From: Mobula hypostoma | Taxonomy: Eukaryota | NCBI RefSeq assembly: GCF_963921235.1 | Contig: NC_086097.1 | Location: 106,270,001 to 106,334,000, forward strand | Length of the DNA: 64,000 nucleotides | Reading direction: 5' to 3' | Shown: in pieces, positions 2,001 through 49,280 of the stretch | How positions within the stretch are numbered: the stretch's first letter is position 1 | Layout: each line of letters begins with the position of its first letter | Translations under genes and position numbers: made by a program | The notes under the pieces: generated by a model | What the model saw: the letters and a program-made list of their open reading frames with translations, nothing else | Told to the model about the DNA's origin: nothing | Databases searched by the model: none

Positions 2001-2036
2001 AGTCCTGACGAAGGGTCTCAACCTGTAATGTCAACT
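2001..2036 (+). ncRNA. Degenerate minimal hammerhead ribozyme motif in PLE terminus
   Basis: AGTC-CTGACGA-AGGGTCTCAACCT-GTAATGTC-AACT; CUGANGA intact, GAAA mutated to GTAA. Confidence 0.65.
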
Positions 2037-2130
2037 ATACTTCTTCCTATAGATGCCTCCTGGCCTGGTGCGTTCCACCAGCATTTTGTGTGTGTTGCTT
2101 GAATTTCCAGCATCTGCAGATTTTCTCGTG

Positions 2131-2338
2131 CCTGATTTAACCCTAGCCCAATCAGAGGTCAATTTATAATGACAAATTAACCTACCAATCAGTACGTCTT
2201 TGAACTGTGGGAAGAAAATGGGCACCCGGAGGAAACACACGCAGTACGTACAACTCCCTACAGGCAGCAGTGGCAATTGAACCCAGGTTGCTGGTACTGT
2301 AAAGTGATGTGTTGATCACCATGCTACCCTGCTGTCCC
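2131..2338 (-). mobile_element. tRNA-derived V-SINE-like SINE, cut at its 3' side by the PLE
   Basis: Reverse complement contains A/B-box-like head (GGTAGCATGGTG...GGGTTCAATT) and core GCGTGTGTTTCCTCCGGGTGCCC...TTCCCACAG, similar to 7010 and 40080 copies. Confidence 0.8.
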
Positions 2339-2658
2339 ACCCTGTATTGTACGTGGACAGTACAACTCTGTTCAACACTGACCATTTTAACTGGTGCATA
2401 CACACCGATATTCAGACACATGGATACAGGGGCAAGCGGAATGGGGAGAGACACACATCACAAATGGCTACAAGGCATAGGGAATCAGCCATGGTGTCTC
2501 ACTGGAGGAACTATGTAGACTCGAGTTTTAGGCTTTCATTTCAGTCTTTTATTCATTTATGATGTGCACTGAGATGATTGGCGCATTGTCACTGAATGCA
2601 GAAAATGACAAGCAATGGGAAGCAGTCTATCTCCTAATGTGGCATGGATCCACCAGAG

Positions 2659-2738
2659 CAGGGGTTCCCAACCTTTTAAAAGCTACAGACCAATACCATT
2701 AAGCAAGGGGTCAGTGGACCCCAGGTTGGGAGCCCCTG
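2659..2738. mobile_element. 80-bp hAT-like MITE
   Basis: TIRs CAGGGGTTCCCAACCT / AGGTTGGGAGCCCCTG; flanking 8-mers CACCAGAG and CGCTAGGG match 5/8. Confidence 0.7.
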
Positions 2739-2964
2739 CGCTAGGGTATCACCTTTATTTCAAGTCCTTTATAAGGGCTTGGCTATACTAAGCAGATAAT
2801 GGATCTGGTACAAGCTGCCATGAGGGAACAGGTAAGTGTAATATAACATCTCGCTGCCTCTATGCAGACTCAGGAAGAACTCTGAATTCTGCCTTTTGTC
2901 TGTCATCTTTGGGAGAAAACTGAAGTACCTCACAAACAGTAAGGTGGCACTCGTTCTGCACTGA

Positions 2965-3495
2965 GATGCTATTTATCAGTAAGTCATTGCTCGCTATAAA
3001 TAGTGATTATAGAACACCATTTAGGCCATATTTGGAGTACAGTGTGCAGTTCTGGTTGCTACTTTATATTAAAGGATTTAGAGGCTGTGAAGAGGGTGCA
3101 GAAGAGGTTTACTACAATGACTCATCAGTATTAGCCATGAGAGGTTGGACAAACTTGGATCTGATCCAAGTATATCAAAACATGGAGGTACAGACAGGGT
3201 AGATAGTCAGAGTCTTTTATCCCATGGTGTTAAGGTCAATAGAGGGCATAGGTTAAAGTTAAGAGTGGAAAATTTAAAAAGAATTTTGTAAGGCAAGGTT
3301 TCTTTTTTACACAGAGAGTAGTAGTTGCCTGGAATGTGCTGTAGGGCTGGTGGCAAAAACAGTTATGAAAGCAACAGTTAAGTGTTATTGAGATAGGGAA
3401 TAGAGGGATATAGGTAGATAGGATTAGTAAGCCTGAAATCATGGTGGGTGTAGACATGATGGGCCGAGGGGCCTCTTCCTATTCTATATGTTATC
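2965..3495 (+). mobile_element. Old CR1 LINE 3' fragment
   Basis: RPYLEYSVQFW motif; decayed CR1 tail GATGGGCCGAGGGGCCT...TTCTATATGTT. Confidence 0.8.
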
Positions 3496-3953
3496 AGTTC
3501 GAATACTAAGTGGTTTAAAAATCAACAGAGAGGAAGAGAAATGCTGCTGAAAGACTTTTGAGAAACAGGCCCAGACATTAATCCCTTAGCATTAAGTAGT
3601 GAAGGCAGACCTGGATGAAAATGTGAGAGAAGTCAATGCCTCATCAAAGTGCACTGGGGTTCAGTTATTGCTGGATTCTAATGCTGAATGGACAAGGAAT
3701 GTGACGAGTTGAACATCTTGAGTAAGATCCACCAAGGATTTTGCTAGGTCTTCATGACAACCATCTCTCTATCAGGGAATTCCCAACTGCGTAAACTCCA
3801 TCTAAGGATAAATACTGGCATGAGACTGAGAGTCAACAAGTACTGTAAGGAACAGTTGAAAAGAACTTTCAAGAGAGAGTTCAAGAGGGTGTGAAACTGC
3901 TGAGAGGTAAACGGGTGGATTCTGTGCAGTCCAACTGGAGGGTTCAACCCAGT

Positions 3954-4248
3954 CACGAGGAAATCTGCAGATGCTGGAATTTCAAGCAACACACATAAAA
4001 GTTGCTGTTGAATGCAGCAGGCCAGGCAGCATCTCTAGGAAGAGGTACAGTCGACGTTTCGGGCTGAGACCCTTCGGCAGGACTAACTGAAAGAAGAGCT
4101 AGACTAGCTCTTCTTTCAGTTAGTCCTGCCGAAGGGTCTTGGCCCAAAACGTCACGGTATCTCTTCCTAGAGGTGCAAACGTCGACTGTACCTCTTCCTA
4201 GAGGTGCTGCCTGGCCTGCTGCGTTCACCAGCAACTTTTATGTGTGTT
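3954..4248. mobile_element. Fold-back PLE terminus element (two inverted arms, centre 4103), 13-bp TSD
   Basis: AAGAAGAGCTAG-A-CTAGCTCTTCTT centre; TSD GGTTCAACCCAGT at 3941-3953 and 4249-4261. Confidence 0.9.
4049..4084 (-). ncRNA. Minimal type I hammerhead motif, best-preserved copy (one core change, CUGCCGA)
   Basis: Reverse complement AGTC-CTGCCGA-AGGGTCTCAGCCC-GAAAC-GTC-GACT: stem I AGUC/GACU, stem II GGG/CCC, GUC triplet. Confidence 0.75.
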
Positions 4249-5993
4249 GGTTCAACCCAGTGGCCAGATTGGCCGCATGAGGCAGGGCAAATCTCACTTT
4301 TCCATGAGGTTACTGCCTCCCGTTCGGGCAATGACCCCCCAGATTTAAGATTTGACCCTCCTCCTTTGCTGATATCTTTCTCTTGAGAAGCATGGCCCTT
4401 TGCTGTCTCATTTGTCTTCTTCAAGCATGAGTTTTTGCCTTGCTTAGCTAGGTTAGGGAACTTGCAGGAGACACGTTCTCCTGGAATTTTATTTTAAGGA
4501 AGTTACTGTATTGGCAATGCCATGGATCTGACTATACAATAAGTGGAGAAGCTGTAAGATGCATAAGTATTCGAGGCTATGAAAGCAGCAGCTGGCTCTT
4601 GTGCCCTAATATTCAGACCTCAGGACAGTGCTGTTCCTAAATGTGTCAGGCCAATATGAACTGCCGAAAATGGAAAAGGCATCTGAGTTTTCAGGAAATA
4701 ACTGATCATTTGGATTTTTTAAAACCAGGATAAGTGACAATTTGGATAATGAAAAGTGAAACACTTTCTCTTTGTGAAGAGGTCTGAGTTTTTTGCCAAG
4801 GGGAGCCTTCTAATCTGGCATTCTGGATTTTGGCGATGATAACCTCATCCACACCAATGACCAAATCTCACCTTGATCACAGAGCTTTGGCTATGGGGAA
4901 AAGGAAATGGAACAGGAGCAAAGCTCCACAGAGTACAGTCCAGACTGATGTGTGTAGGTTGTCTCACAGGATGTCACATAACTCAGCCTTTGGAAACCTA
5001 TGTTTCGATATGCATTGTTCCTTGGATGGTCATGATTGGAACTAGCCTTCCCGAGAAGTATCAGTGGGTATGTCCTCTTCCCCCAGCCCCTAATCTCCCT
5101 TCAGTCACCTTACAATATCTAACCTGAACTTCAAACTGTCAGTAATGCAACCAATGATGCCTTTATCACTTTATTTCCTCAGCAATTAAACTCTCCAAAA
5201 AATATAAAAGTACATGCCCGATCTGCTGAGTGTTTCCAGCTTGTTCTGTTTTTGTACCAGTTTATAGCATTGCTAGAACACTCTGGGGTGTTCTTTGCAT
5301 TTTTACAAACTAACTTGCTTTTTGAACTTGTGCACTTCACTTCAGTTTGACATTGTGAATCACTGACATTAGATCTGATCTGTGGTAAAGTGGATTCACA
5401 ATGGATGCTCCTGGTCTTATTTTATAATTGTTGCAAGTTGACCTGAGAATCACTACAAATGTGATTTATACTTGCGTAAATCGATTCTTGATCTCTGTGC
5501 TGAAAAAGACAGTTGGCTGTGATGAAATTTCCTGGCAAGTGGGTAGAAATGCTTCAAGCAGTTGTGATGCTTTAAGATAGATGCGTCTTTGGATAGGTAG
5601 GCATCATGCATTTCCAAAGGCCAATGATATTAAATGAGGTGAGAATGCAGGCCAGACATCAGCGTCACCCCACTACAAACCAATATGAAAGTGAAGCCGA
5701 CACTTCAGACAGCAGTGTGATATATTTTTAATATAGAGAAGTATTTTTATGCCTTCCATAATGTTAATGGAAAATAAACTGCTATTTAAAATGAATTGGT
5801 ATAGTTGATATAACCTCCAAATCTGCTGAAGACCTTAAAGTGGCTGCTTGTACAAATATTTTGTAATTTACATAATACAGTATTCATTTTTTTATCATTG
5901 ACAGCGTGTTTCCACTGTGATTGCACATTATAATATTAAAATTAACAACATTTTTCACAAGAAACACCTGCAAAATGTTCATATATTGAGCAG

Positions 5994-7001
5994 CAAACAC
6001 GAGGAAATCTGCAGATGCTTGAAATTCAAGCAACACGCAAAAAATGCTGGTGGATGCAGCAGGCCAGGCAGCATCTATAGGAAGAAGTACAGTGGCTGTT
6101 TCGGGCTGAGACCCTTCGTCAGGACTAACTGAAAGAAGAGATAGTAAGAGATTTGAAAGTGGAAGGAGGAGGGGGGTAATCCGAAATGACAGGAGAAGAC
6201 AGGAGGGGGAGGGATGAAGCTAAGAGCTGGAAAGTTGATTGGCAAAAGGAATACGAGGCTGGAGAAGGGAGAGGATCATGGGTTGGGAGGCCTAGGGAGA
6301 AATAAAGAGGGAGGGGAGCACCAGAGGAAGATGGAGAGAAGGCAAAGAATTACTGTGAGAGGGATAGAGAGAGAAAAAAAGGGGGAAATAATAAATAAAT
6401 AGGGATGGGGTAAGAAGGGGAGGAGGGGCATTAACGGAAGTTAGAGAAGCAGGATCTTCGAGTGGCCATACATTTTAATTCCGTGTCCCATTCCCATTCT
6501 GTTATGTCTATCCATGGCCTCCTCTACTGTCAAGATGAAGCCACACTCAGGTTGGAGGAACAACACCTTATATTCCGTCTGGATAGCCTCCAACCTGAAG
6601 GCATGAACATTGACTTCTCTAACTTCCGTTAATACCCCTCTTCCCCTTCACACCCCATCCCTTACTTATTTATTTATTGATTATTTCTCCCCCTTTTCTC
6701 TCTCTATCCCTCTCACAATAACTCCTTGCCTGCTCTCCATCTTCCTCTCGTGCTCCCCTCTCCCCTTCTTTCTCCCTAGGCCTCCCATCCCATGATCCTC
6801 TCCCTTCTCCAGCTTGGTATCCCTTTTGCCAATCAACTTTCCAGCTCTTAGCTCCATCCCTCCCCCTCCTGTCTCCCCCGCCTCCTTCCACTTTCAAATC
6901 TCTTACTATCTCTTCTTTCAGTTAGTCCTGACGAAGGGTCTCAGCCCAAGACTTCTTCCTATAGATGTTGCCTGGCCTCCTGCGTTCCACCAGCATTTTG
7001 T
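5994..7001. mobile_element. Fold-back PLE insertion: inverted arm 5994-6449 plus sense arm 6450-7001 containing the GIY-YIG C-terminal coding end; 13-bp TSD
   Basis: Arms are reverse complements over ~400 bp; TSD ATATATTGAGCAG at 5981-5993 and 7002-7014; homologous to 1495-2130. Confidence 0.9.
6091..6126 (-). ncRNA. Hammerhead motif with intact CUGACGA and GAAA, altered cleavage region
   Basis: Reverse complement AGTCCTGACGAAGGGTCTCAGCCCGAAACAGCCACT. Confidence 0.65.
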
Positions 7002-7009
7002 ATATATTG

Positions 7010-7290
7010 AGCAGTATGGCAGTGTAGTGGTTAGCACAATGCTTTGCAGAACTAGCGACGTGGGTTCATTTCCCTGTCACTGCCCGTGAGGAGTTTGCAT
7101 GTTCTCCCTGTGGCTGTGTGGGTTTCCTCCAGGTGCTCTGGTGACCTCCCACAGTCCAATTACTTACCGGTTGGTAGGTTAATTGATCATTGGAAGTAAT
7201 CCCTTTTATTAAACTAGGGCTTAAATGCGCATGGCTGGGCAGCACAGCTTGAATGGCCTATTCCATGCTGTATATCAATAAATAAATTTT
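7010..7290 (+). mobile_element. V-SINE-like tRNA-derived SINE
   Basis: Head GGCAGTGTAGTGGTTAGC...GGGTTCATTTCCC; core GTGTGGGTTTCCTCCAGGTGCTCTGG..CCTCCCACAG; (AATA)n tail. Confidence 0.8.
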
Positions 7291-7869
7291 CTAATAGAAC
7301 AGAAGAAACCCCAAGCAGATGAATAGAATAAAAATGAAGTAAGTCTAAAGAATTAAGAGGATGAAAGTCAGTAATGCTGGCAACGTCAGCCCATTGTACT
7401 CTGCCTCAGGAATTCTACTGACTTCAAAGGAATGAATTTCAAATGATATTGTGTGTTTAGTGCTGCTGTTTTGGAACAAAATTCTCAGCACAAATCTTTA
7501 AGTGATTCTACTTTAAAAATATCTACAGCACTGTATTAACCTGGAAGTATTCCTGACAGCTTTCCCGTGTAAACTCTTCCCGAGTGTACTTAACTTACAA
7601 CACTTTATATAAGTGATTCTACAATGTCTTGGAGGTTTGCTATCGTCTCCCAGAACACTGTAGTACTCTATGTCCACTAAGATGCATCTGCTAAACAACG
7701 CTCTGTTCCTCATCCATTGAAATATTAAGTAGCGTACATTTATAATGGTAGAAATTGAGACTGATAACCTTGCTATGCGTCCTACAATACTTCTTCTATT
7801 GAAATATACACAACTCAGAACATTAGTCCCAACATGATCAAAGTCAGGAAGCAAAAGGTTGAGCATGGT

Positions 7870-8232
7870 GAGACTAATGTTCTAAGCTGCATATATTTCA
7901 GTGCAAGAAGTATTGTAAGAAAGGTGGATGAGCTCAGGGCATGGATCAACACCTGGAATAATGACATTGTAGCCATTAGACAGAGTTGGTTGTAGGAGGG
8001 GCAGGACTGGCAGCTCAATATTCCAGGGTTCTGCTGTTCTAGATGCGACAGAACGGAAGGGATAAAAGGGGAGGGGTGGCATTACCAGTCAGGGAAAATA
8101 CCATGGATGTGCTCAGTCAGAGCAGACTGGAGAGCTCCTCTGGTAAGGCTTTATGCGTGGAACTGAGGAATAAGATGGGTATGATAATGTTAATGGGGTC
8201 ATATCATAGACCTCCCACAGTCCATGGGATTT
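7870..8232 (+). mobile_element. CR1 ORF2 N-terminal (APE endonuclease) fragment
   Basis: Encodes ARSIVRKVDELRAWI...DIVAI, GGVAL, VELRNK; similar to 32555-32900. Confidence 0.75.
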
Positions 8233-8800
8233 AGAGAACATAGAAACATAGAAAACCTACAGCACAATACAGGCGCTTTGGCCCACAAAGTTGTGCCAAA
8301 CATGTCCCTACCTTATAAATTACTAGACTTCCCCATAGCCCTCTGTTTTTCTAAGCTCCATGTACCCATCCAAAAGTCTCTTAAAAGACCCTATTGTATC
8401 TGCCTCCACCACCGTTGCCAGCAGACCATTCCATGCACTCACCACTCTCTGAGTAAAAAACTTACCCCTGACATCACCTCTGTACCTACTCCCCAGCACC
8501 TTAAACCTGTGTCCTCTTGTGGCAACTATTTCAGCCCTGGGAAAAAGTCTCTGATTATCCACACGATCAATGCCTCTCATCATCTTATACACCTCCATCA
8601 GGTCACCTCTCATCCTCTGTCGCTCCAAGGAAAAAAGGCCGAGTTCACTCAACCTGTTTTCATAAGGCATGCTCCCCAATCCAGGCAACATCCCTGTAAA
8701 TCTCATCTGCACCCTTTCTATGGCTTCTACATCCTTCCTGTAGTGAGGCGACCAGAACTGAACACAGTACTCCAAGTGAGGTCTCACCAAGGTCCTCTAT
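8233..8800 (-). mobile_element. CR1 LINE 3' end
   Basis: ORF 8323-8790 VRPHLEYCVQFWSP...FFTQRVVSAWNGL; (TATGTTTC)n tail. Confidence 0.92.
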
Positions 8801-10050
8801 AACATGGCCTGGATGGTGGGGGTCCTTGATGATGGATATTGTTTTCCTGCAAGAGCGCTCCACGAAAATATGCTCAATGGTAGGGAGAGTTATATCCGTG
8901 ATTGGTTGGGTCATATCTGCTACATTTTGTTGTTATGTCTGTTCAAGTGCAATGGTGTCTCCATACAAGGCCGTGATGCAACCAGTCAATATAACAGCCA
9001 CCCATTTACAGAAGTTTTAGATGACATGCAGAATCTTTATAAACTTCAGGGAAAGTAGAGGCACTGTCGTACTTTTTTTGTAATAGCATTTACGTGCTGC
9101 ACCCAAAACAGAACCTCTGTCTTGATAACACCAAGAAATTTAAAGTTGCTGACCCTCTCTTCTTACCCCCTGAAGAAGGCTGGTTCATGGACCTTCAGTT
9201 TCCTACTCCTGAAGTCAATAATTATCTCTTTGGTCTTGCTCACATTGAGTGACGGGTTTTTGGTTATGGCATCTCTCAGCCAGATTTTCAATCTCCCTCC
9301 TATATGCTGAGTCATCACCGCCTTTGATTTGGCTAATGATAGTGATATTATCAGCAAACTTAAATATGGCATTGGAGTTGTGCTTAGTCTCACAGTCATA
9401 AGTATAAAGCGACTAGAGCAGGGGGCTAAGCACAGAGCCTCGTGGTGCACTGGTGCTGATGATGATTGTGGAGGAGATGTTGTTGCCAATCCAAATTGAC
9501 TGTGATCTGCAGCTGAGGAAATCAAAGGATCCATTTGCAGGTGGTTTTGAGGCCTAGGTCTAGGAGCTTATTGATTGGTTTTGTAGGGATGATAGTATTG
9601 AAAGCCGAGTTGTAGTCAATGAAGAGTATCCTGATGTATAAACCTTCACTGTCCAGATGTTCCAGGGATGAGCAAAGAGTGAATGAAATGGCATCTGTTG
9701 TTGACCTGTTATGGTAGTAGGCAAATTGGAGCAGATCCAAGTCACTCTCAGGCAGGAGTTGATATGTTTCATCACCACCCTCTCAAATCACTTTATCACA
9801 GTGGATGTATGTGCTACTGCACGACGGTCATTGAGGCACCTGTATAATTGAAGCCTGCTTGAAGCAGGTGGATACCTCAGACTGCTGAAATGAAAGGTTG
9901 AAGAGATCAGTGAACACTCCAGCCAGTTGATCAGTCTTTAGCATTTGGCCAGGTACCCTATCTGAGAGGATGTTTTCTGTGGGTTCACCCTCCTGAAGAA
10001 TGCTCTCACATTAGCCTCAGAGACTAAAATCATAGGATCGTCGGGAGCAT
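8801..10050 (-). mobile_element. Rex1/Babar-type non-LTR retrotransposon fragment (decayed RT)
   Basis: [61 protein letters not shown]. Confidence 0.85.
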
Positions 10051-10342
10051 TGGGAATCTTCCTATCACATTTCATGAGTTAACAGATCTTCTTGGGTAGG
10101 AGCCACACTAAGGCTGTAGGATGTTCATTTATTGCCCATTTCACCATCTCTCTGGGAGGACCTAATTTGGTGGTGGTACCACATACAGAATTATTTTTTA
10201 CACACCAATAAAGCAAATTCCAATCCTAGTCATTAAAATATTATCTGATTCAGATATTCATGAATACTCATATACATCAATTAATTTAATGTGGATCAGA
10301 AATTGTGGGGTGGGGAGGAGAGTGGTAGGGTAAACAAATGTA

Positions 10343-10638
10343 CACTCAGTGGCCACTTTATTAGGTACACCTCTTCAACTGCTCGTTAATGCAAATATCT
10401 AATCAGCCAATCATGTGGCAGCAACTCATTGAATGAAAGCATGCAGAAAACCACACCGTGATCCACTCCCGTACATAATAAAGTGGCCATTGCGTGTGAA
10501 TTGTTTTGAAAAGCAACTGAACATTTTGACCATGTCTGCATGATTCTAGGCATTGAGTAGCTGCCACATGATTGGCTGATTAAATATTTGTTTTCACGAG
10601 CAGGTTACAAGTGTACCTAATAAAGTGGCCACTAAGTG
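10343..10638. mobile_element. Tc1/mariner-derived MITE with ~100-bp TIRs and TA TSD
   Basis: TA-CACTCAGTGGCCACTTTATTAGGTACAC ... GTGTACCTAATAAAGTGGCCACTAAGTG-TA. Confidence 0.88.
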
Positions 10639-13600: not shown

Positions 13601-14323
13601 TGCTCCTGGCATATTCCAGGAGTAGAAATTCGCACTTACAGCTAAATCTTTCCTCACCTTTATGTGCAAGTTGTGTTGAGGCAAAATTGGAACTGCCAGG
13701 GAAATCAGTGGCTTTCTTTATCAGGCATGTAAATTTCTGTCCATTACCACCTGGTGTCCACTATGAAGAGCAGCTCAGAGGTGGTTGATTCCACGGTCTG
13801 AAATATAACAGTTGACTTATAGATCATAACATATTTTTAAGATCACCAGTTTTATGTCTTAATTTTTTTAGTTGACTTCCTTCATTCTTTGTCCTGAAGC
13901 TGTGATATAGTTCCAGAATCACAGTTTAAGTTTGGTATATCCACTGTTATTCTTAGAAAGGCTTTTACAAGTTCATTTATGGAAACATAATGAACAACCA
14001 TAACCAGGACATCATCTGACCTTTGTGCAGCATCAGGATATGGATACCAAATGGCTACTGTGCTTGGAATCTTGGCAGATTTTTCTTTTACCAGATGAGG
14101 AGAAAATGTCTAGTGGTCAGTGTCTCAGTGTGTTGATGATTACTTGTGACTGAGTCCGAAGACCTTAATCCTTCTTTGCAGGTTACTGGATGTCACATGC
14201 TATTAGACAGGAAAATTTGCTAACTCTTCCCTATTTTCTAGGCCGTCGTAAAGGTCAGTTGCAAACTCAGCTATTCCTGAGGTTGGCAGGTTGGTGAAGT
14301 CAACAGAAACAATATTATAACAG

Positions 14324-14541
14324 AGCAACACATGCAAAGTGCTGGAGGAACTCAGCAGATCAGACAGTATCCATGAAAATGAATAAACAGTCGACTTTTT
14401 GGGCCGAGATCCTTCATCATGACTCAGCCCAAGAATTGACTATTTATTCATCTTCATAGATGCTGTCTGACATGCTGAGTTCCTCCAACATTTTGTGTGT
14501 GTTGCTCTGTATTTCCAGCATCTGCAGAATCGCTTGTGTTT
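14324..14541. mobile_element. Fold-back PLE terminus element of an older subfamily, 13-bp TSD
   Basis: Inverted arms meeting near 14425; TSD AATATTATAACAG at 14311-14323 and 14542-14554. Confidence 0.85.
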
Positions 14542-14994
14542 AATATTATAACAGGCATAGTAGGTTTTAATGGAGGTGAAACTGAGCTAGAAATGAGGCA
14601 AGGTTCAGGGAAGGCACTCCAGTGCTTAGGGCTAAGGCCACCAACAGCATCGTAAGGAAAACTGTAGATGCAGAAGAAATCAGAACTGGAGAAATCAATA
14701 AATCATTTAGGCTAGAAACTTAGGGAAAGAGTGAGGATGAGACAACTGAGTAACTGAAAACAAGGCGAATAATACTCAGATCAAAATATAGTTATACCAG
14801 GAGAAAACAGTAGATAGATTAGCTCAGATTGATGATGCAGGTTATAATTCTGCATGAGATACTTGGAAGAACTGAAGGATGGATAGTTTAGGATGGCCCC
14901 ATTCAATCAGGTGTGTACCAGACACAAAGTATTACATAAAAATTAAGCAATTTACATAACTCATAAGAAAATTCTTTTCAGTGAATATCCACAA

Positions 14995-15750: not shown

Positions 15751-15832
15751 AGTATAAGATGTAAACATAATATAAAACAGAAAAGGACTTTTGAAACATC
15801 AATATGTTGCCAACCTGCTAAATAAGAACTAA

Positions 15833-16305
15833 TGCAACATACCCAAAATACTGGAGAACTCAGCAGGTCAGGCAGCATCTACGGAAATGATTAAACAGTT
15901 GATGTTTTGGGCTGAGACCCTTCTTCAGGACTGAGAAGGAAGGGGGAAGATACCAGAATAAAAAGGTGGGGGCGTAGGGAAAATAGTCTAGGTGAAGCCA
16001 GGTGGATGGGAAATCGAGAGCTGGAGAAGAAAGTATCTGATAGGAGAGGAGAGTGGACAATAGGAGACAGGAAGTGACAGGGAAGTGGTAGGCAGGTGAG
16101 AAGGTCAGAGTGCAAAATAGAGGGGGGTGGGGTGGAACTTGTTTACCAGAAGGAGAAATCAATGTTCATACCATCAGGTTGGAGGATACCCAGACAGAAT
16201 ATAAAGTGTTGCCCCTCCACCCTGAGGGTGATGAGACCACGAATCAACATGTCAAAATGGGAATGGGAACTGGAATTAAAATGTTCGGCCATTGGGAAGT
16301 CCCAT
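15833..16305 (-). mobile_element. PLE 3' fragment (GIY-YIG end + pLTR), hammerhead relic at 15897-15932
   Basis: Antisense of ...QPDGMNIDF; reverse complement AGTCCTGAAGAAGGGTCTCAGCCCAAAACATCAACT. Confidence 0.85.
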
Positions 16306-35930: not shown

Positions 35931-35959
35931 AATCCAGGTCTGCTGATCTCAGGGTTTGA

Positions 35960-36182: not shown

Positions 36183-38848
36183 GCACTGCCTTATTCTGCA
36201 GATTCCAGTTCTCCCTTTTTACTTAAGTCTACTCACACTCCTGTGCCTCTCTTGTACTGCACACCATGTTTTGAGGCCTTTATGAGCCTCTGATTGTTGC
36301 AGCAGCAAGCCAACAAACAAAGCACCATTAGCCTGCCGTGCATCATCCCATCACTGCACTTAAACAAGTTGCTATCCTCTTTTCAGGCCCCAGACATATG
36401 CCACATAATGGCATTTGCTAAGCAATACCGTAGATCAAGTGCAGATGATTGATGGAGAAGGATAGAGAGTGAAAGGATAGAAGGTCACCTTTGATCAGAG
36501 TTCTGCATTGCAGCAAACACTTTTTAACAGAACATCTCAGACAGTAACACATATAAAATTGGAAAACAACTAAGATATTCTGCTGCTGCCAACTCACTCT
36601 CAAACTGAACTTATTCTTGTTCAAAACTTTACTACAGCTTTGAAATTTACAGAAAATTATAATGCAATAAAAGATTTAAACAACTGCCTTCTTGTGTTAC
36701 ATGACTGCTCAATATAGGTATACTATGGTTGATAATGCAGAAGTATTAAACAATTCCTGGCATAACCAAGTCAAAATATCTGACTGTAGCTTTCTATCAG
36801 CCAATAACTACATTATAAACAGTAATTACTTTGAAATCTGCATCTTGTTCAGAATTTGACAGCACAATGGAATTACTTTTTATCAAAGCAGAAGCCCACA
36901 CATACCAGAGGAATCCACGGGTACACTGCGCTGATTAATCCCTGCATTCCAAACGGTCTTAGTCATTTGTAATACCAATGAAAACATAATCAAGATTGTA
37001 TTTAGCATCGCTGCCAGGGAACCTTATCACTCTTAACTGCATAGAAAAGTGATGTCTTTGACCTTGAAAGATTAACTATGATTTCATGATGAGTTTGTCC
37101 TTTTATCTTGTCAGTTGTATTTTTTGGGGAGGGGTGCATAATGAGAGTTGTATCAGCTGAACACATTGTTAGAACATTTGACACACTGCGAGATAATACA
37201 GCTTTAACTTCAACCACAGTATCACCATCAGCGTATCATATGATTACTTCATTCCCATCTCCTCCTCTTCACCTTCTGCCCCAATGGAATATTCCCAATT
37301 TAGGTCTTTCATTGCTGAGATACCCAGATACTCCTGACCGAATTGATTTTGTGATCCAGTTTCTTGGTTACTCAGGTACAGATCAGAATATCACAAAACG
37401 TGAGTGTGCAGACCACAGGACTCTTAAGCTCCACAGCAGCAGGCTATTTAAAATGCTGCATTTTTGGCCTGAATTTAATTCATGTTTATCGATTAAAGCT
37501 GAAATACAGCCTTATATATTCGAACAATGGAAGATCATATATTACAAGGCTATAATCAATGCAGGATTCTATTGACAACAGGAAGCATGAGAGTGCAGCC
37601 CAAATAATTCATGAAGTAAATTAAATAAATACCATTTATAATATTAGAGACACCATACAATTGTAACTTCTTTAAAAGCAAAAGTAATGTTTTATTTCAA
37701 TTGTAAATTGTAGCTTTGTGATTGCTGTGGTGAGATAGAAGGATACAGTGATGCAGGGAAAAACGTTTGACATTGCATGGCAAATGTAAAGTAATGCTAA
37801 GCACTGCGTAATTAAAGTGCATCAATATCCCAGGCTTATAACCTGTACAGTACTATACAGGGGTTGCATATGCCACACAATCATTTTCATTTCAAGATAT
37901 GGGTCAACATCAGATAGACAGATATCAAAGCTAAATCAAGAATGTCATCCTAACAAAATGTTTTTGTTCCTTCATTATGGAGAATCCATTTATGATGCAT
38001 TGGTTGGTGCATTATTCAGTTTCCAGCAAAACACTATCTCCAATTATTCATATTTTAATGTTTACCCCAGTGGCTATTGCTTGGAGGCAATCAATATGTT
38101 GGAAACATAACCTTGGACACATTAGCAGTTACTTTTCTCTAGATAATGTTAATTAGTATGTTATCAGAGAATTGCACCTCATATTTGTATCTGTTCCTCT
38201 CAACATACTTTCTGCCCTTCTTTTGGACACCCTTGTGATACACATCCTTTCCAAACTAAATGGGTAAAAATGCGTCTTGGTGCTGGGTCCTTATGGCATT
38301 GAAAGAATGTAGCAAGGCAATTTGAATGAATGAGCCGTCTGCTTCCTTAGTTTATGCATAATTTCCCTTGCTATGATCACTATTTAAACGGCATTAATGT
38401 TCAGTACGATACTAATAATTGCAGGTAAACTTTCAAGAAGATAAATCTTTGTGAAAATTCTCCCTCTCTGTCAAATGTATTTGAGGAAAATTACAAGATA
38501 TGACTCTAGTTTGCAAACCTGCAGTACAAATCCAATTATTGTTCTTGCCACCTGGTAACATCTATGTACTCAGCAGTACACTACTTTAAAATATAATAAA
38601 TTACTTTTCTCCACTAAATAGACGCACAATTTCTCTACATAAAGTCACTATAACTTCCAAATTATTTTACAATTGCACCTCGATGGAAAGTCAGTTATTC
38701 AAAAAAATTCACCTATGCTGGCAGCCTAAAGTTGGAAACACTGATCAATAACATTAGATATTCCTGTTGATATGTCGGTAGATAGAATTTTAGAGTGTAA
38801 AAGTAAATGAAGTATTTGCACATGGAAACAATACTGTATGTCAAAGGA

Positions 38849-39147
38849 ACACACATCAAAGTTGCTGGTGAACGCAGCAGGCCAGGCAGCATCTCTAGGA
38901 AGAGGTACAGTCGACGTTTTAGGCCAAGACCTTTCATCAGGACTAACTGAAGGAAGAGTTAGTAAGAGATTTGAAAGTGGGAGGGGGAGGGGGAGATCCA
39001 TTTTTTCCTTCAGTTAGTCCTGACGAAGGGTCTTGGCCTAAAACGTCGACTGTACCTCTTCCTGGAGATGCTGCCTGGCCTGCTGCATTCACCAGCAACT
39101 TTGATGTGTGTTGCTTGAATTTCCAGCATCTGCAGAATTCCTGTTGT
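38849..39147. mobile_element. Fold-back PLE terminus element, 14-15 bp TSD; hammerhead motifs at 38909-38944 (-) and 39016-39051 (+)
   Basis: TSD CTGTATGTCAAAGGA at 38834-38848 and 39148-39162; arms are reverse complements. Confidence 0.92.
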
Positions 39148-39529
39148 CTGTATGTCAAAGGACACACTCTAAGCCCCCACATGAGATCAAAATTCTCCTG
39201 ACAGGTCTAGTTGCAGTTGCATCTAACAGAAAGAACGAGAAATAAACATAAAACTTCCTTTCAATAGATAAGGATTTCAAGGGTCCTTCATTGATGATGA
39301 ACAATATACTGTATGCAACTTTGGGGCAAGTTTTGAACCGGTGGTACTCCACATATTTCCTTTCCTCACAGTCTATTCTTACTATGACAGGTGTAGGGTT
39401 ATGTAGTGCCCCTGGTGACCTGAAAGATGTGATTGTTTAAAGGATGAATGGGATTATCAGTCAAGTCTTGCCTTGTCCCGGATTTGTCAAATATTGTGGA
39501 ACTGCACATCCAAGCAAAGGCATAACATT

Positions 39530-39832
39530 CCACCACACTGCCCCTTCTCACCAGTCTATCACTTTCCCCTGGGCCCCCTCCTTCTTCCCTCTCTTCCATT
39601 GTCCACTCTCCTCTCCTATGAGACTCTTCTTCTCCAGCCCTTGACCTTCCCACTGACATGGCTTCACCTATCACCTTTCAGTTAGCCTCCTTCCCCTTGC
39701 TCCACCTTTTTATTCTGGTGTCTTCCCCCTTCCTTCTCAGTCCTGAAGAAGGGTCTCAGCTAGAAATGTTGACTGTTTATTCATTTCCATAGATGCTGCC
39801 TGACCAGCTGAGTTCCCCCAGCATTTTGTATG
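39530..39832 (+). mobile_element. PLE 3' UTR/pLTR fragment, hammerhead relic at 39739-39774
   Basis: AGTCCTGAAGAAGGGTCTCAGCTAGAAATGTTGACT; homologous to 15833-16120. Confidence 0.8.
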
Positions 39833-42291: not shown

Positions 42292-42810
42292 AGGCTATAT
42301 TATGAAGAAAGCATGGCAGCGCCTCTACTTTCTTAGAAGTTTGCAAAGATTTGGCATGTCATCTAAAACTTTGATAAATTTCTATACATAAGTGATGGAC
42401 AGAATATTTATTGGTTGCATCATGTGCTGGTATAGAAGCACAAATGCCCTTGCAGTGGATATAGCCTAGTCCATCATTGGTAAAGCCCTCTCCACCCCTG
42501 AGTCCATATATATGCAGCACTGTTGTAGGAAAGCAGTATTCATCATCAAGGACCTACACCATCTAGATCATGTTCTCTTCTCGCTGCTGCCATCAGGAAG
42601 AAGGTACAGGAGCCTCAGGACCTATGCCACCTGTATTTGTACATTCTTGTCTTTTGCACATTGATTTTTTTGTCCATCCTGTTGGGGGCAGTCTTTCAGT
42701 GATTCTACTGTGTTTCTTGTATTTACCATGAATGCCAAGAAGACAATGAATCTCAGGGTTGTATATGCTGATGTATTTGTACGTTGATAATAAATTTAGT
42801 CTGAACTTTG
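42292..42810 (+). mobile_element. Rex1/Babar 3' fragment nested in the old CR1 ORF1
   Basis: KKAWQRLYFLR, IIKDLHH..LLPSGRRYRS; 3' UTR like 25310-25600; TGAACTTTG tail. Confidence 0.8.
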
Positions 42811-43351
42811 TTTTGAATTTGTGGATGAGAAGCTGGTGCAGGGACAGGGATTCATGTTCTTGGACCATTGTGATCTCTTCTGACCTCTACAAGAGGGATG
42901 GGTTGCACTTCAACCAGAAAGGGGCCAATATCATTGCAGGGAAACTTGCTCGTGCTACAAGGGAGGGTTTAACTAGATTAGCAATGGGCTGGGACTCTAA
43001 GCAGTAAGTCATAGGATAAAGCAGAAGCAGACGAGTGCAAATCCAATAGTCAGTACAGTGAGGGGGACAGTAAAGGCAGGGAAAGGAATGCCCAGTTTAA
43101 CTGCATTCATTTGAATACTTGAGGTTTAACTGGTAAGGCAAACAAATTCAGAGCATGGATTAGCTCTGAGGTCTAGATGTTGCTGGCATGACAGAAACAT
43201 GGCTGAGAGAAGGGCAAGACTGGCAGCGAATATTCCTGGACATGCTATAGAAGTGACAGAAGTATAGGTAAGTGAGAAATGGGTCTTTTTGATAAGGGAC
43301 GACAAACAGCAGTGGTTGGAGATGGCATTCTTCAGGGATTGTCCAATGAAA

Positions 43352-46300
43352 CCATAAGACCCCCCACTGAGTCTGCTCCGCCATTTTATCATGAGCTGAT
43401 CCATTCTCCCATTTAGTCCCAGTCCCCCGCCTTCTCACCATAACCTTTGATGCCCTGGCTACTCAGATACCTATCAATCTCTGCCTTAAATAGGGAGTTT
43501 GTAGAGTGCCTACGGGATGCATTTTTGGAGCAGCTTGTACGAGAGCCGATCAGGGATAAGGCTATTCTGGATTTAGTGTTGTGCAATGAACAGGATTTGA
43601 TAAGTGATCTTGAAGTAAAGGAGCCATTAGGAGGTAGTGACCATAATATGATAAGTTTTTATCTGCAAGTTGAGAGGGATAAGGGCAGATCAGAAGTGTC
43701 AGTATTGCAGTTGAACAAAGGAGACTATGGAGCCATGAGGGAGGAGCTGGCCAAAGTTGACTGGTCGGATTTCCTAGCAGAAAAGACAGTGGAACAGCAA
43801 TGGCAGATATTCTTGGGAATAATGCACAAGGTGCAAAATCAGTTCATCCAAAGGGCGGGAAGTGGCCACAGTGGTTGACAAAGGAAGTCAGAGATAGCAG
43901 AGCATTAAAAAAGAAGTATAACAGAGCTAGGGTGAGTGGGAAGACGGATGATTGGGAAATTTTTAAGGAGCAACAGAACTTAACTAAAAAGGCAATACGG
44001 GGAGAAAAAAATGAGGTATGAATGCAAGCTAGCTAGGAATATAAAGGAGGATAGCAAAAGTTTTTTTAGGTATGTGAAGAGAAGGAAGATAGTTAAGAAC
44101 AATGTTGGCCCTTGAAGAATGAATTGGGAGAAATTGTTATGTGAAACAGAGAAATGGCAGACGAATTTAATAAGTACTTTGGATCTGTCTTCACAAGCAA
44201 TCTCCCAGATGTATGGATGGGCCAAGGACATAGGGTAACAGAGGAACTGAAACAGATTGACATTAGGAAGGAAACGGTGATGAGTAGACTGATGGGACTG
44301 AAGGCTAACAAATCCCCAGGTCCAGATAGTCTGCATCCTGGGGTACTAAAGGAGGTGGTTCTGGAAATTGCGGATGCATTGCTGATCATTTTCCAATGTT
44401 CCTTAGATTCAGGATCAGTTCTGGAGGATTGGCGAATGGCTAATGTTATCCCACGTTTTAAGAAAGGAGGGAGGGAGAAAACAGAGAACGATTGCCCTGT
44501 TAGCCTAACATTAGTAGTGGGGAATATGCTAGAGTCCATTATTAAAGATGAAATAGTGGCATATCTTGATAGCAGTGATAGGATTGGGCCGAGCCAGCAT
44601 GGATTTACCAAGGATAAATCATGCTTGACTAATCTACTGGAGTTTTTCAAGGATGTAACCAGGAAGATAGACACGGGAGATCCAGTGGATGTGGTGTACC
44701 TTGACTTTCAGAAGGCATTTGGTAAGGTACCACAAAGGAGATTGGTGGGTAAAATCAGAGCTCATGGCATTGTGGGGATGATATTGACATGGATAGAAAA
44801 CTGGTTGGCAGATAGAAAGCAAAGGGTAGCAGTGAATGGGTGTTTCTTGGAATGGCAGGTGGTGACTAGTGGGGTGACACAGGGCTCGGTATTGGGGCCA
44901 CAGCTGTTTACAATTTACGTCAATGATTTAGAGGAAGGCATTGTGAATAACATCAGCAAGTTTGCTGATGATACTAAGCTGGGTGGCAGTGTGACATGTG
45001 ATGAGGATGTTAGGAGAATTCAAGGTGACTTGGATAGGCTGGGTGAATGGGCAGAAACTTGGCAGATGGCGATTAATGTGAATAAGTGTGAGGTAAGAAC
45101 AGGAAGGCAGATTATTATCTGAACGGTGTGGAGTTAGGTAAGGGTGAAATACAAAGAGATCTAGGAGTACTTGTTCATCAGTCTCTGAAGGTGAATGAGC
45201 AAGTGCAGCAGGCAGTGAAGAAGGCTAATGGAATGTTGGCCTTTATTACAAAGGGTATTGAGTACAAAAGCAAGGAAATCCTTTTGCATTTGTACAGGGC
45301 CCTGGTGAGACCACACCTGGAGTATTGTGTGCAGTTTTGGTCTCCAGGGTTAAGGAAGGACATCCTGGCTGTGGAGGAGGTGCAGCGTAGGTTCACTAGG
45401 TTAATTCCTGGTATGTCCGGACTGTCTTACGCAGGGAGGTTAGAGAGACTGGGCTTGTACACGTTGGAATTAAGGAGATTGAGGGGGGATCTGATTGAGA
45501 CATATAAGATTATTAAGGGAGTGGACAAGATAGAGGTGGAAAATATGTTCCAGATGCTGGGAGAGTCCAGTACCAGAGGGCATGGTTTAAGAATAAGGGG
45601 TAGGTCATTTAGGACAGAGTTGAGGAGGAACTTCTTCTCCCGGAGAGTTGTGGAGGTGTGGAATGTGCTGCCTCAGAAGGCAGTGGAGGCCAATTCTCTG
45701 GATGCTTTCAAGAAGGAGTTAGATAGGTATCTTATGGATAGGGGAATCAAGGGTTATGGGGACAAGGCAGGAACCGGGTATTGATAGTAGATGATCAGCC
45801 ATGATCTCAGAATGGCGGTGCAGGCTCGAAGGGCCAAATGGTCTACTTCTGCACCTATTGTCTATTGTCTATTAAATACACTCAATGACTTGGCCTCCAC
45901 TGCCACCCGTGGCAACAAATTCCATAGATTCACCACCCTCTGGCTAAATAAATTTCTTCGCATCTCTGCTCTGAATGGGCACCCTTCAATCCTTAAGTCA
46001 TGCCCTCTCGTACTAGACTTTCCCATCATGGGAAACAACTTTGCCACATCCACTCTGTCCATGCCTTTCAACATTCGAAATGCTTCTATGAGGTCCCCAC
46101 TCATTCTTCTAAACTCCAAGGAATACAGTCCAACAGCGGACAAACGTTCCTCATATGTTAACCCTCTCATTCCCGGAATCATTCTGGTGAATCTTCTCTG
46201 TACCCTCTCCAACGTCAGCACATCCTTTCTTAAATTTGAAGACCAAAACTGCCCACAGTACTCCAAGTGAGGTCTTACCAGCGCTTTATAGAGCCTCAAC

Positions 46301-48533
46301 ATCACATCCCTGCTCCTACACTCTATTCCTCTAGAAATGAATGCCAACATTGCATTTGCCCTCTTCACCACCGACTCATCCTAGAGGTTAACCTGAAGGG
46401 TATCCTGCATGAGGACTCCCAAGTCCCGTTGCATCTCAGAACTTTGAATTCTTTCCCCATTTAAATAATAGTCCGCCCATTTATATCTTCTGCCAAAGTG
46501 CATAACCATACACTTTCCAACATTGTATTTCATTTGCCACTTCCTTGCCCATTCTTCCAATCTATCCAAGTCTCTCTGCAGACTCTCTGTTTCCTCAGCA
46601 TTACCGGCCCCTCCACCTATCTTCGTATCATCAGCAAACTTAGCCACGAAGCCATCTATTCCATAATCCAAATCGTTGATGTACAATGTAAAAAGAAGTG
46701 GCCCCAACACGGACCCCTGTGGAACACCACTGGTAACCAGCAGCCAACCAGAATAGGATCCCTTTATTCCTACTCTCTGTTTCCTGCCAATCAGCCAACA
46801 CTCTATCCACGTATGTAACTTTCCCGTAATTTCATGGCCTCTTATCTTGTTAAGTAGCCTCATGTGTGGCACCTTGTCAAAGGCCTTCTGAAAATCCAAA
46901 TATACAACATCTATTGCATCTCCCTTGTCTAGCCTACTTGTAATTTCCTCAAAAAATTGTAATAGGTTCGTCAGGCAGGATTTTCCCTTCAGGAAACCAT
47001 GCTGAGTTCTACCTATCTTGTCATATGCCTCCAGGTACTCCGTAACCTCATTCTTGACAACCAACAACTTCCCAACCACCGATTTCAAGCTAACAGGTCT
47101 ATAATTTTCTTTTTGCTTCCTTGCCCCCTTCTTAAATAGCGGAGTGACATTTGCAATCTTCCAGTCCTCCGAAACCATGCCAGAATCTATCGACTTTTGA
47201 AAGATTGTTGCTAATGCCTCTGCAATCTCCACAGTTACTTCCTTCAGAACACGAGGGTGCATTCCATCTGGTCAGGGAGATTTATCTACCTTTAGACTAT
47301 TCAGCTTCCCGAGTATTTTCTGTGTCGTAATTGTGACTGCGCACACTTCTCTTCCCTGCTACCCTTGAGTGTCCGGTATACTGCTGATGTCTTCTTCAGT
47401 GAAGACTGATGCAAAATACTCATTCAGTTCCTCCGCCATCTCCTTATCTCCCATTACAATTTCTCCAGCATCATTTTCTATCGGTCCTATATCTACTCTC
47501 ACCTGTCTTTTACTCTTTATACACTTGAAAAAGCCTCTAGTATCCTCTTTGATATTATTTGTTCACTTCCTTTCATCGTTCATCTTTTCCCTCTTAATGA
47601 CCGTCTTAGTTTCCTTTTGTAAGCTTTTGAAAATTTCCCAATCCTCTGTCTTCCCACTATTTTTTGCTTCCTTGTATGCCCTCTCTTTTGCTTTAACTTT
47701 GGCTTTAACTTCTCTTATCAGCCACGGTTGCATCCTTTTTCCATTCGAAAATTTCTTCTTTTTTGGAATATACCTGTCTTGCACATTCCTCACTTCTTGC
47801 ATAAACTCCAGCCACTGCCACTCTGTCATCCTTCCCGCCAGTGTCCCTTTCCAGTCAACTTTGGCCGGCTCCTCTCTCATTCCACTATAATTTCCTTTAA
47901 TCCACTGAAATACCGACATATCGGATTTCGGCTTCTCTTTTTCAAATTTCACAGTGAACTCAATCATGTTATGATCACTGCCTCCTAAGGGTTCCTTCAC
48001 CTCAATCTCTCTAATCACCTCCGGTTCATTACACAATACCCAATCCAGTACAGCCGATCCCCTAGTGGGCTCAACAACAAGCTGTTCTAAAAAGCCATCT
48101 TGCAGACATTCTACAAATTCTCTCTCTTGAGATCCAATGCCGACCTGATTTTCCCAATCCACTCGCATGTTAAAATCTCCCACAATTATCATAACACTGC
48201 CTTTCTGACAAGCCTTTTCTATTTCCTGTTGTAATCTGTAGTCCACATCACTGCAGCTGTTTGGAGGCCTGTATATAACTGCCATCAGGGTCTTTTAACC
48301 CCTGCGATTTCTTAGCTCAACCCATAAAGATTCTGCACCTTCCGATCCTATGTCACCTTTTTCTGGTGATTTGATACCATTTCTTACCAATAAAGCCTCG
48401 CCACTCTCTCTGCCTACCTTCCTATCCTTCTGATACACCGTGTATCCTTGGACGTTCAGCTCCCAGAGACATGCATCCTTTAGCCACGTCTCAGTGATGG
48501 CCACAATATCATACCTGCCAATCTGTAGCTGTA
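43352..48533 (-). mobile_element. CR1 (APE to 3' end) nested in the old CR1 and itself interrupted
   Basis: ORFs 45862-48504 (AITETWL, YRPPNS, GDFN, SDH, RT motifs); 3' tail at 43352-43492. Confidence 0.93.
43493..45871 (+). mobile_element. CR1 of a different subfamily inserted in the minus-strand CR1, 7-bp TSD
   Basis: TSD TTAAATA at 43486-43492 and 45872-45878; RT ORFs 44154-45784; (CTATTGT)n tail. Confidence 0.93.
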
Positions 48534-49096
48534 CTAAGCCACTTAGGTTGAAATTAGAGACAAGAAGGAGAGGGTAACGCTAGAGGGAAAGTATTGTAGA
48601 ACCCAAATAGTCAGTGAGGACTTGAGAAAGACGTGTGTAGAGAAGTTGTTCATAGTTGTAAGAATAACAGTGTTGTATTAGTGGGAGATTTGAATTTTCC
48701 CAGTATTGATTTAGCCACAGAGAGTGTTAAGGGCTTGGACAGAGAGGAATTTGTGAAATGTGCCCAGGAAACTTTCCTGAATCAATACAGAAAGCCCTAC
48801 TCAAGAGAGTAGGGTGCATTACTGGAGAATCTCTCAATGCATTACCTGGGGCAGGTTGCATTGCTGGATAATCTCTGATGGAGTGAGGCAGGTCAAGTAA
48901 CAGAAGTGGCAGTCAGGGATTACGTTGGCTCTAGTGGCCATATTTCTATTAGTTTTAAAAAAGTGATGGCAAAGGATAGAACAGGTCCACAGGTTATGGT
49001 CCTAAACTGGAGCAAGGCTAATTTTGGGGGAGTTAGTCATGATCTAGCAGAGGTCGATTGGGTGAGTCTATTTGAAGGGAAAGTAACAGACAGGAC

Positions 49097-49280
49097 CTAT
49101 CTGGGCTTCCCTCGAACTCTGACTCCTCATCTCTTTTTTTCTCTAGTCCTGCTAAAGGCTCTCAGGCCAAAATGTTGAATGTACTCTTTTCCATTGATGC
49201 TGCCTGGGCTGCTGAGTTCCTCCACAATTTTGTGTGTGTTGCTTGGATTTCCAGCATCTGCAGATTTTCTCTTGTTTGTG
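49097..49280 (+). mobile_element. PLE terminus fragment nested in the old CR1
   Basis: AGTCCTGCTAAAGG...GATGCTGCCTG...CCAGCATCTGCAGATTTTCTCTTG. Confidence 0.8.

What the first reader, a model, noticed from the sequence alone, without database searches (positions are those of the whole stretch)
2001..49179. About 11 copies of a minimal hammerhead ribozyme in the Penelope-like termini
Seen: aligning the termini at 2001(+), 4049(-), 4122(+), 6091(-), 6924(+, 3' half lost), ~14389(-), 15897(-), 38909(-), 39016(+), 39739(+) and 49144(+) gives the consensus AGTC-CTGANGA-A-GGGTCTCRGCCC-GAAAC-GTC-GACT. This folds as stem I AGUC/GACU, core CUGANGA, stem II GGG(U)/(G)CCC, GAAA, and a GUC cleavage triplet with almost no stem III (self-complementary ACGU). 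N varies (C, T, A) at the one position hammerheads leave free. Established: PLEs carry minimal type I hammerheads thought to work as dimers, and an extra A after CUGANGA is known in some natural hammerheads. Inference: the active parent self-cleaves after GUC. No copy here is perfect, and many changes are CpG-type transitions (CGAAACG to CAAAACA).
Basis: partly seen in the sequence, partly recalled or inferred. Interest (0 to 1): 0.7.

Follow-up and report, generated by a model that had tools for sequence, protein, structure and literature searches.

The report
Penelope hammerheads, mostly copied uncut
The eleven motifs are real but decayed copies of an already described tiny hammerhead-ribozyme motif at the end repeat of a very abundant Penelope-like jumping gene, and the genome's copies suggest that its RNA likely starts at the motif's first base, is predicted to fold the motif shut, and is likely cut there only rarely.

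Summary
All 11 motifs are at the stated places (the last starts at 49145): 1-8 mismatches to the 36-nt consensus, against 12 or more in 100 shuffles. They come from 8 insertions of a Neptune-type Penelope-like element (RT plus GIY-YIG) and fit the published minimal type I hammerhead of PLE pseudo-LTRs (Cervera and de la Pena 2014). None of the 11 is intact; the genome holds 11,669 exact 28-nt cores plus about 7,750 matches mostly of a sister subfamily. Cleavage is not shown. Copies run through the predicted cut; 5' ends pile up at the first base of stem I (43 of 100), likely the RNA start. Starts at the cut show a small excess (98 against 42 at a matched control; about 57 against 40 after removing biased classes, p=0.05). 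No U6 chimera sits at the cut. The monomer is predicted to fold into an inactive rod, and one subfamily carries an A6C core (8 of 9 copies). No two-sided covariation was found. Known kind; the scan has reported it many times on other DNA, also in this genome.

The parts
1..2126 (+). 5'-truncated Penelope-like element (begins 364 bases before the window): RT, GIY-YIG, 3' pseudo-LTR with hammerhead motif and tail
   Evidence: 85% identical over 2502 bases to a young long-ORF copy
205..1209 (+). RT part of the PLE ORF (broken by a stop at its end)
   Evidence: weak RVT_1 match, E 6e-4; 85-90% identical relatives with open frames up to 1169 aa
1210..1677 (+). Cys linker (CKRNKCYTC, Neptune/Nematis type) and GIY-YIG endonuclease
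   Evidence: GIY-YIG E 1.5e-4; linker fits CX2-5CxxC (PMC8557442 passages)
2001..2036 (+). hammerhead motif, GAAA lost; predicted cut would be 2032|2033
3954..4248 (.). head-to-head two-armed insertion; 13-bp target duplication at 3941-3953 and 4249-4261
4049..4084 (-). hammerhead motif, A6C (shared with the other arm), otherwise intact
4122..4157 (+). hammerhead motif, A6C, GAAA lost, internal duplication after GUC
5994..7001 (.). head-to-head two-armed insertion with EN end and pseudo-LTR; 13-bp target duplication at 5981-5993 and 7002-7014
6091..6126 (-). hammerhead motif, cleavage triplet lost
6924..6959 (+). 5' half of the motif; 3' half deleted
14324..14541 (.). head-to-head insertion (subfamily B); 13-bp target duplication at 14311-14323 and 14542-14554; second arm lacks most of the motif
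14389..14424 (-). hammerhead motif, C3 and G12 changed
15834..16297 (-). subfamily B fragment: EN end, pseudo-LTR, tail
15897..15932 (-). hammerhead motif, N7=A, G12 changed
38849..39147 (.). head-to-head two-armed insertion; 15-bp target duplication at 38834-38848 and 39148-39162
38909..38944 (-). hammerhead motif, G12 changed (shared with the other arm)
39016..39051 (+). hammerhead motif, G12 changed
39739..39774 (+). hammerhead motif of subfamily B; core intact, pair 10.1-11.1 broken
49145..49180 (+). hammerhead motif of subfamily C, which has C at core position 6; part of a fragment 49144-49273

Best explanation
The motifs are decayed DNA copies of the minimal type I hammerhead motif in the pseudo-LTR of a Neptune-type Penelope-like retroelement, whose RNA likely starts at the first base of stem I, is predicted to fold the motif into an inactive rod, and is likely cut after GUC only rarely and with help, so that most insertions were copied from uncut RNA. 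Shown: the motif lies about 300 bases after the stop codon and 139 bases before the AUG of the next tandem unit; copies run through the predicted cut and end at about +65 or +99 (the PLE 'tail'); 5' ends pile up 31-32 bases before the cut. Predicted: core bases G5-G8 pair with C15.2-C17, and upstream read-through sequence pairs with the core and abolishes stem I. Inferred: the element's own protein (or a second copy) opens the fold now and then, which would leave the small excess of copies that start at the cut.
For: Architecture equals the published min-HHR consensus, nearest printed examples Acropora Neptune and Ixodes. 11,669 exact 28-nt cores in the 3.48-Gb genome, reversed control 0; 7,754 further matches with a changed loop II, control 78, nearly all of a sister subfamily whose ORF is 75-80% identical. 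Young copies are 97-99% identical with a 1016-aa RT+EN ORF and an intact motif. 22 of 30 ORF-joined copies extend upstream of the cut, 0 of 30 start at it. 43 of the first 100 printed of 3,003 copies broken between -40 and -28 start at -31/-32 (hand count). Monomer MFE is the rod, 2-4 kcal/mol below the open form; with 40 nt of upstream sequence P(stem I) falls to 0.00, 0.04 and 0.09 in three natural copies. Starts at +1: 98 against 42 at +11 with the same upstream filter and 26 at +3. The anole PLE hammerhead cuts only with the element's protein, and its mutants insert normally in vitro (PMC11167929).
Against: No RNA end was observed, so both the RNA start and the cut are inferred from DNA joints. 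The +1 excess is biased: 25 of 98 joints carry a snap-back AAGA that always passes my filter, and the hairpin offers microhomologies; with those classes removed it is about 57 against 40 (p=0.05), and 19 against 8 and 7 for flank-joined copies (p=0.03-0.04 before removing 4 AAGA cases). No U6 3' end is joined at the cut (0 of 24; 0 of 30). The upstream pairing beats shuffled upstream sequence in one copy (0 of 60), weakly in a second (6 of 60), not in a third (28 of 60). Subfamily C has C6 in 8 of 9 copies, a change that cripples cleavage in Mg2+ in other hammerheads (PMC7151607). The -31/-32 ends could also come from a splice acceptor: a pyrimidine tract plus AG precedes the motif in every subfamily.
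Confidence: 0.62

Rival explanations
1. Cleavage by a dimer of two tandem motifs is a required step: it cuts unit-length RNA from a precursor, which is then circularised and copied (model of Cervera and de la Pena 2014).
For: The 15.2-16.2 bases are palindromic (ACGU) in 162 of 180 core-intact subfamily A copies; partial tandems exist (407 exact pLTR-ORF joints); one locus has four motifs 310 bases apart; re-ligation would explain intact motifs in inserts; dimers and trimers of the Schistosoma motif cut weakly (PMC4209133).
Against: In a full unit the two motifs are about 3.5 kb apart; the paired window copies are on opposite strands; 5' ends pile up at -31/-32, not at the cut, and 3' ends at about +65/+99; the two-strand MFE is an extended duplex, not the active dimer; an A6C subfamily spread; anole mutants insert normally in vitro.
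Confidence: 0.13
2. In this family the motif no longer cuts; it is kept as a structure or as overlapping promoter, splice-acceptor or protein-binding sequence, and the joints at +1 come from the hairpin's own complementarity.
For: No two-sided covariation; A6C subfamily; 13 of 35 D/E copies break the fourth stem I pair yet keep the 5' AG; most +1 joints are inverted-arm joints (73 of 98) and 13 of the 22 have 3-4 nt microhomology (hand count); no U6 chimera at the cut; Naiad PLEs thrive without hammerheads (PMC8557442).
Against: Apart from subfamily C, the subfamily consensus sequences keep CUGANGA, the extra A, GAAA, GUC and both stems while flanks, loop II and N7 change; a +1 excess remains after filtering; the related anole motif does cut with protein and is rescued by the C3G/G8C double change.
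Confidence: 0.23
3. The likeness to a hammerhead is chance in a repeat terminus.
For: Rfam reports no hammerhead; the motif is only 36 nt.
Against: All core boxes, both stems, the extra base after A9, G10.1 and the palindromic 15.2/16.2 are present as in the published PLE consensus; a structure-only descriptor gave 117 hits in 882 kb of (selected) loci and 0 in five shuffles; the position in the pLTR is the published one.
Confidence: 0.02

Closest known systems
Minimal type I hammerheads (min-HHR) of metazoan PLE pseudo-LTRs (Cervera and de la Pena 2014, PMC4209133; main text parts 1-2 of 4 and supplementary PDF parts 1-2 of 3 read)
   Same: Same core, short helix I, extra base between 9 and 10.1, G10.1-C11.1 (or G-U), palindromic 15.2/16.2, no helix III, position in the pLTR of an RT+GIY-YIG element, many dispersed single or opposite-strand copies.
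   Different: No cartilaginous fish is among the motifs of their Fig. S3; helix II here is short (4 bp, tetraloop); one subfamily has C6; copy number is far above their 4,000-9,000 for coelacanth and Xenopus.
PAc, Poseidon PLE of Anolis carolinensis with a protein-assisted hammerhead (Frangieh et al. 2024, PMC11167929; parts 1-2 of 4 read)
   Same: Two 3' ends about 35 bases apart downstream of the motif (tail), uncut RNA as main template, motif near the ORF start.
   Different: In PAc the ORF starts inside the motif; here the AUG is 139 bases after the cut. This element has the Neptune/Nematis Cys linker. Activity was tested there, not here.
Neptune clade EN+ PLEs (Craig et al. 2021, PMC8557442; passages read)
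   Same: RT, CX2-5CxxC linker, C-terminal GIY-YIG, partial tandems, inverted 5'-truncated arm, tail.
   Different: Clade not tested by a tree; Nematis has a similar linker.
Natural A6C hammerhead of phage Bcep176 (PMC7151607; passages read)
   Same: C at core position 6 in subfamily C (window copy 49145).
   Different: That is a full bacterial-phage ribozyme assayed in vitro; here it is an old retroelement subfamily seen in about a dozen decayed copies.

Membership tests
PLE minimal hammerhead (min-HHR) | Core CUGANGA and GAAA | tested here: met
   11,669 exact genomic cores; subfamily consensus A, B, D/E; not met in subfamily C (C6 in 8 of 9) nor in most window copies
PLE minimal hammerhead (min-HHR) | Helix I closing the core (type I), 3-5 bp | tested here: met
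   AGUC/GACU plus a fifth U-G or C-G pair
PLE minimal hammerhead (min-HHR) | Helix II with G10.1-C11.1 and one extra base after A9 | tested here: met
   GGGU/GCCY, G-C or G-U closing pair, extra A in 179 of 180 subfamily A copies
PLE minimal hammerhead (min-HHR) | No helix III; palindromic 15.2/16.2; NUH triplet | tested here: met
   C-G in 162 of 180, H17=C in 167 of 180 (the count was made on core-intact copies)
PLE minimal hammerhead (min-HHR) | Located in the pseudo-LTR of an RT + GIY-YIG element | tested here: met
PLE minimal hammerhead (min-HHR) | Covariation of stems across families | tested here: inconclusive
   Only one-sided changes (G-C/G-U, U-G/C-G) and loop II changes; no two-sided change; subfamilies are close kin
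Hammerhead ribozyme (catalytic) | Self-cleavage after NUH | not testable with these tools
   Only indirect genomic signs: small excess of copies starting at the cut
Rfam hammerhead families | Match to an Rfam covariance model | tested here: not met
   No hammerhead family at E<=5 in the window; young intact copies were not scanned
Neptune-clade EN+ PLE | RT followed by C-terminal GIY-YIG in one ORF | tested here: met
Neptune-clade EN+ PLE | CX2-5CxxC linker between RT and EN | tested here: met
   CKRNKCYTC; definition from PMC8557442 passages
Neptune-clade EN+ PLE | RT phylogeny places it in Neptune | not tested
Non-LTR retrozyme | Non-coding tandem repeats of 150-400 bp with canonical type I hammerheads | tested here: not met
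   Window copies are PLE ends with target duplications; one 4 x 310-bp array with minimal motifs exists elsewhere (L368)

The most novel reading that the evidence does not exclude
This PLE's hammerhead is a switched, conditional ribozyme: the RNA starts exactly at stem I, the same sequence in read-through RNA is locked by an upstream pyrimidine tract so that the 3' copy stays uncut for reverse transcription, rare protein-assisted cuts are recorded in the genome as copies (many with a snap-back AAGA) starting at G+1, and a whole subfamily spread with an A6C core, showing that cutting is optional for transposition in vivo.
Probability: 0.3. Interest if true: 0.55.

Novelty: new member of a known kind. 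Interest (0 to 1): 0.27.

Why it matters
The motif itself is known and expected in every canonical PLE, so the finding as written is ordinary. What the hammerhead does in PLEs is an open question (PMC8557442 and PMC11167929 both say so in the passages read). This genome offers a young, 98%-identical family with long open frames, a likely RNA start at stem I, a predicted off-fold, a weak cut footprint and a natural A6C subfamily: a ready set for testing whether cutting happens and whether it matters for transposition.

Tried and rejected
Rfam scan of the window: no hammerhead; the two miRNA hits are the perfect hairpins of the two-armed insertions. U6 chimeras at the cut (lead from e1-8023305): 0 of 24 U6 3' ends (the pattern misses about a quarter of ends by design) and 0 of 30 top Rfam U6 loci (overlapping sets); two U6-PLE joints lie elsewhere (L191, L194). 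3' ends at the cut: of the first 100 printed of 897 matches most are small indels and about 3 end at GUC by eye; no pile-up. Sequencing runs: no RNA holder listed; four runs laid were contigs only, gave no molecule ends, and none of the 15 joints shown (of 294) was a GT-AG skip ending at the motif: uninformative. Splice-acceptor reading of the AG in stem I: upstream sequences of copies starting at -31/-32 are heterogeneous, not one exon, but it is not excluded. The raw peak at +1 (22 of 98 by hand count, 2 indel rows dropped; other 12 positions average 6) was not accepted as evidence because 13 of the 22 have microhomology with the element's own sequence. Rows dropped in the matched counts: 2 tandem duplicates at +1 (100 to 98) and 6 of a 7-copy array at +11 (48 to 42). 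A relaxed pattern for distant hammerhead families was swamped by the sister subfamily, so cross-family covariation could not be tested. Literature searches for a description in sharks or rays (find) and for cut-site starts of truncated copies (listing only) showed none; subscription papers and Repbase were not searchable, and the supplements of the 2026 bioRxiv preprint, which sampled one chondrichthyan genome, are closed and may list this motif.

Full report
Observation. In 100 local shuffles no site had fewer than 12 mismatches. None of the eleven passes a strict minimal-hammerhead descriptor. In the nine unrearranged copies 29 of 46 differences are CpG-type transitions at 10 of 36 positions (window CpG o/e 0.26). 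The motifs belong to eight insertions. Four of them are head-to-head two-armed insertions with 13-15-bp target duplications; in two of these both arms share private changes (A6C at 4049/4122; the G12 change at 38909/39016), so the arms come from one template or were homogenised. Rfam finds no hammerhead.

The element. Window 1-2126 is a truncated Penelope-like element with RT and GIY-YIG. Its family is large and young: the RT search had 98,293 candidates and open frames up to 1169 aa; long copies are 97-99% identical with a 1016-aa ORF and the linker CKRNKCYTC, which fits the CX2-5CxxC linker described for Neptune (PMC8557442, passages; no tree was made). The host is likely a cartilaginous fish; this rests on recall of such repeats and on the 3.48-Gb, CR1-rich, CpG-poor genome, not on a call. 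The motif lies about 300 bases after the stop codon; in partial tandems the same sequence precedes the ORF, whose AUG is 139 bases after the predicted cut (407 exact pLTR-ORF joints). Insertions end mostly near +65 or +99, the two-ended 'tail' of PLEs (PMC11167929).

The motif. It reads stem I AGUC/GACU (plus a fifth pair), CUGANGA, an extra A, stem II GGGU/GCCY with a tetraloop, GAAA, C-G, UC. This is the published min-HHR consensus; the Acropora Neptune and Ixodes rows are the closest printed ones, and no cartilaginous fish is listed (PMC4209133). The genome has 11,669 exact 28-nt cores (control 0) and 7,754 matches with another loop II (control 78), nearly all of a sister subfamily with a 75-80% identical ORF. 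Across subfamilies loop II (CUCG/UCCG), N7 (C/U/A) and the flanks change; stems change on one side only (G-C to G-U at 10.1-11.1 in the young subfamily; U-G or C-G at the fifth stem I pair). No two-sided change was seen, and 13 of 35 D/E copies break the fourth stem I pair. A further subfamily, to which 49145 belongs, has C at core position 6 in 8 of 9 assigned copies, against 5 of 228 in subfamily A, three of which are truncation joints. A6C is a known natural variant that strongly lowers cleavage in Mg2+ (PMC7151607, passages).

Predicted folding. The monomer's lowest-energy fold keeps stems I and II but pairs G5-A6-C7-G8 with C15.2-G16.2-U16.1-C17, 2-4 kcal/mol below the open form. With 40 nt of natural upstream sequence the pyrimidine tract pairs with the core and P(stem I) falls to 0.00, 0.04 and 0.09 in three copies; shuffling the upstream bases reached as low a value in 0, 6 and 28 of 60 trials, so specificity is clear in one copy only.

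What the genome records. Of 30 copies that join the pLTR to the ORF, 22 extend upstream of the cut and none starts at it. Among 3,003 copies whose homology breaks between -40 and -28, 43 of the first 100 printed start at -31 or -32, the first bases of stem I (hand count); 11 of the 20 at -31 have an extra G before them. This likely marks the RNA's 5' end; earlier notes of this scan say the same for this genome. At the cut itself, a raw peak (22 of 98) is confounded by microhomology from the hairpin. With a filter that removes the main microhomology classes, 98 copies start at +1, 42 at +11 (same filter) and 26 at +3 (slightly stricter filter) (p about 1e-6 for 98 against 42). But 25 of the 98 carry AAGA before G+1, the product of a snap-back that needs a cDNA end at +1 yet always passes the filter and is therefore over-counted. 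With microhomology of at most one base the counts are 76 against 40 (p=0.0005), and about 57 against 40 without the snap-back class (p=0.05). Flank-joined copies number 19, 8 and 7. No U6 end is joined at the cut, and 3' ends do not pile up there. So a cut footprint is suggested, small, and not proven; the stem I foot is the far commoner start.

Mechanism. Shown: position, anatomy, copy numbers, joints. Predicted: the off-fold. Inferred: the RNA begins at stem I; reverse transcription starts inside the RNA at about +65 or +99, or at the same places in the 3' pLTR of a longer RNA, and runs over an uncut motif; the motif cuts rarely, likely helped by the element's protein, as shown in vitro for the anole PLE, whose hammerhead mutants still insert. 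I give this 0.62; a motif that no longer cuts 0.23; obligatory dimer cleavage and circles 0.13; chance 0.02. The window's own copies are dead.

Novelty. A new member of a known kind. I found no description for sharks or rays in the searches named under Tried and rejected; a 2026 preprint (10.64898/2026.07.22.740005, passages only) scanned one chondrichthyan genome with canonical and minimal models, and its closed supplements may hold the motif. The scan has reported such motifs in 1,091 findings from at least 49 genomes and many times in this genome. Interest 0.27.

Noticed in passing
window:3780-3920: Fragment of 28S rRNA (pseudogene piece); the well-aligned core of the Rfam LSU hit, right beside the two-armed PLE insertion at 3954.
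   Followed up: no
window:17223-17310 (-): A twelfth PLE tail (+8 to +91) with no recognisable hammerhead motif.
   Followed up: partly
window:49145-49180; L066, L070, L152, L185, L208, L246, L262, L284, L331: An older PLE subfamily with C at hammerhead core position 6 (8 of 9 assigned copies); genome-wide number not counted.
   Followed up: partly
L368 (G000:C2:157816400-157817900, - strand): Tandem array of a 310-bp unit made of the hammerhead, tail and ORF start, with four motifs in one orientation and a short target duplication: retrozyme-like, and able in principle to form dimers.
   Followed up: partly
L360-L366 (G000:C36:22144225-22145157): Seven tandem 151-bp units from +11 of the pLTR into the ORF start, without the hammerhead.
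   Followed up: partly
L191:1500-1700 and L194:1500-1720: U6 snRNA copies joined to PLE sequence, at about +33 of the tail through a 5-base microhomology and inside the EN region; L168 and L183 are U6 retrocopies inserted in PLE copies.
   Followed up: partly
window:27681-28256 (+): ORF1 piece of a CR1/L2-type LINE with an SGNH/GDSL esterase domain (Lipase_GDSL_2, E 4e-15); such esterases in LINE ORF1 are known (recalled).
   Followed up: no
window:59901-60401 (-): ORF fragment with CxxC and HxC motifs that looks like a restriction-like-endonuclease non-LTR element (recalled; no Pfam hit).
   Followed up: no
G000:C1:27960991, 33985949, 34516008: Three matches with a longer helix II (up to 8 bp), perhaps hammerheads of other PLE families.
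   Followed up: no
all subfamilies, directly before the motif (e.g. window:4100-4125, 39715-39742): A pyrimidine tract plus AG, like a 3' splice site, overlaps the 5' strand of stem I, as the intron end does in Drosophila virilis Penelope (PMC4209133); no spliced copy was recognised.
   Followed up: partly
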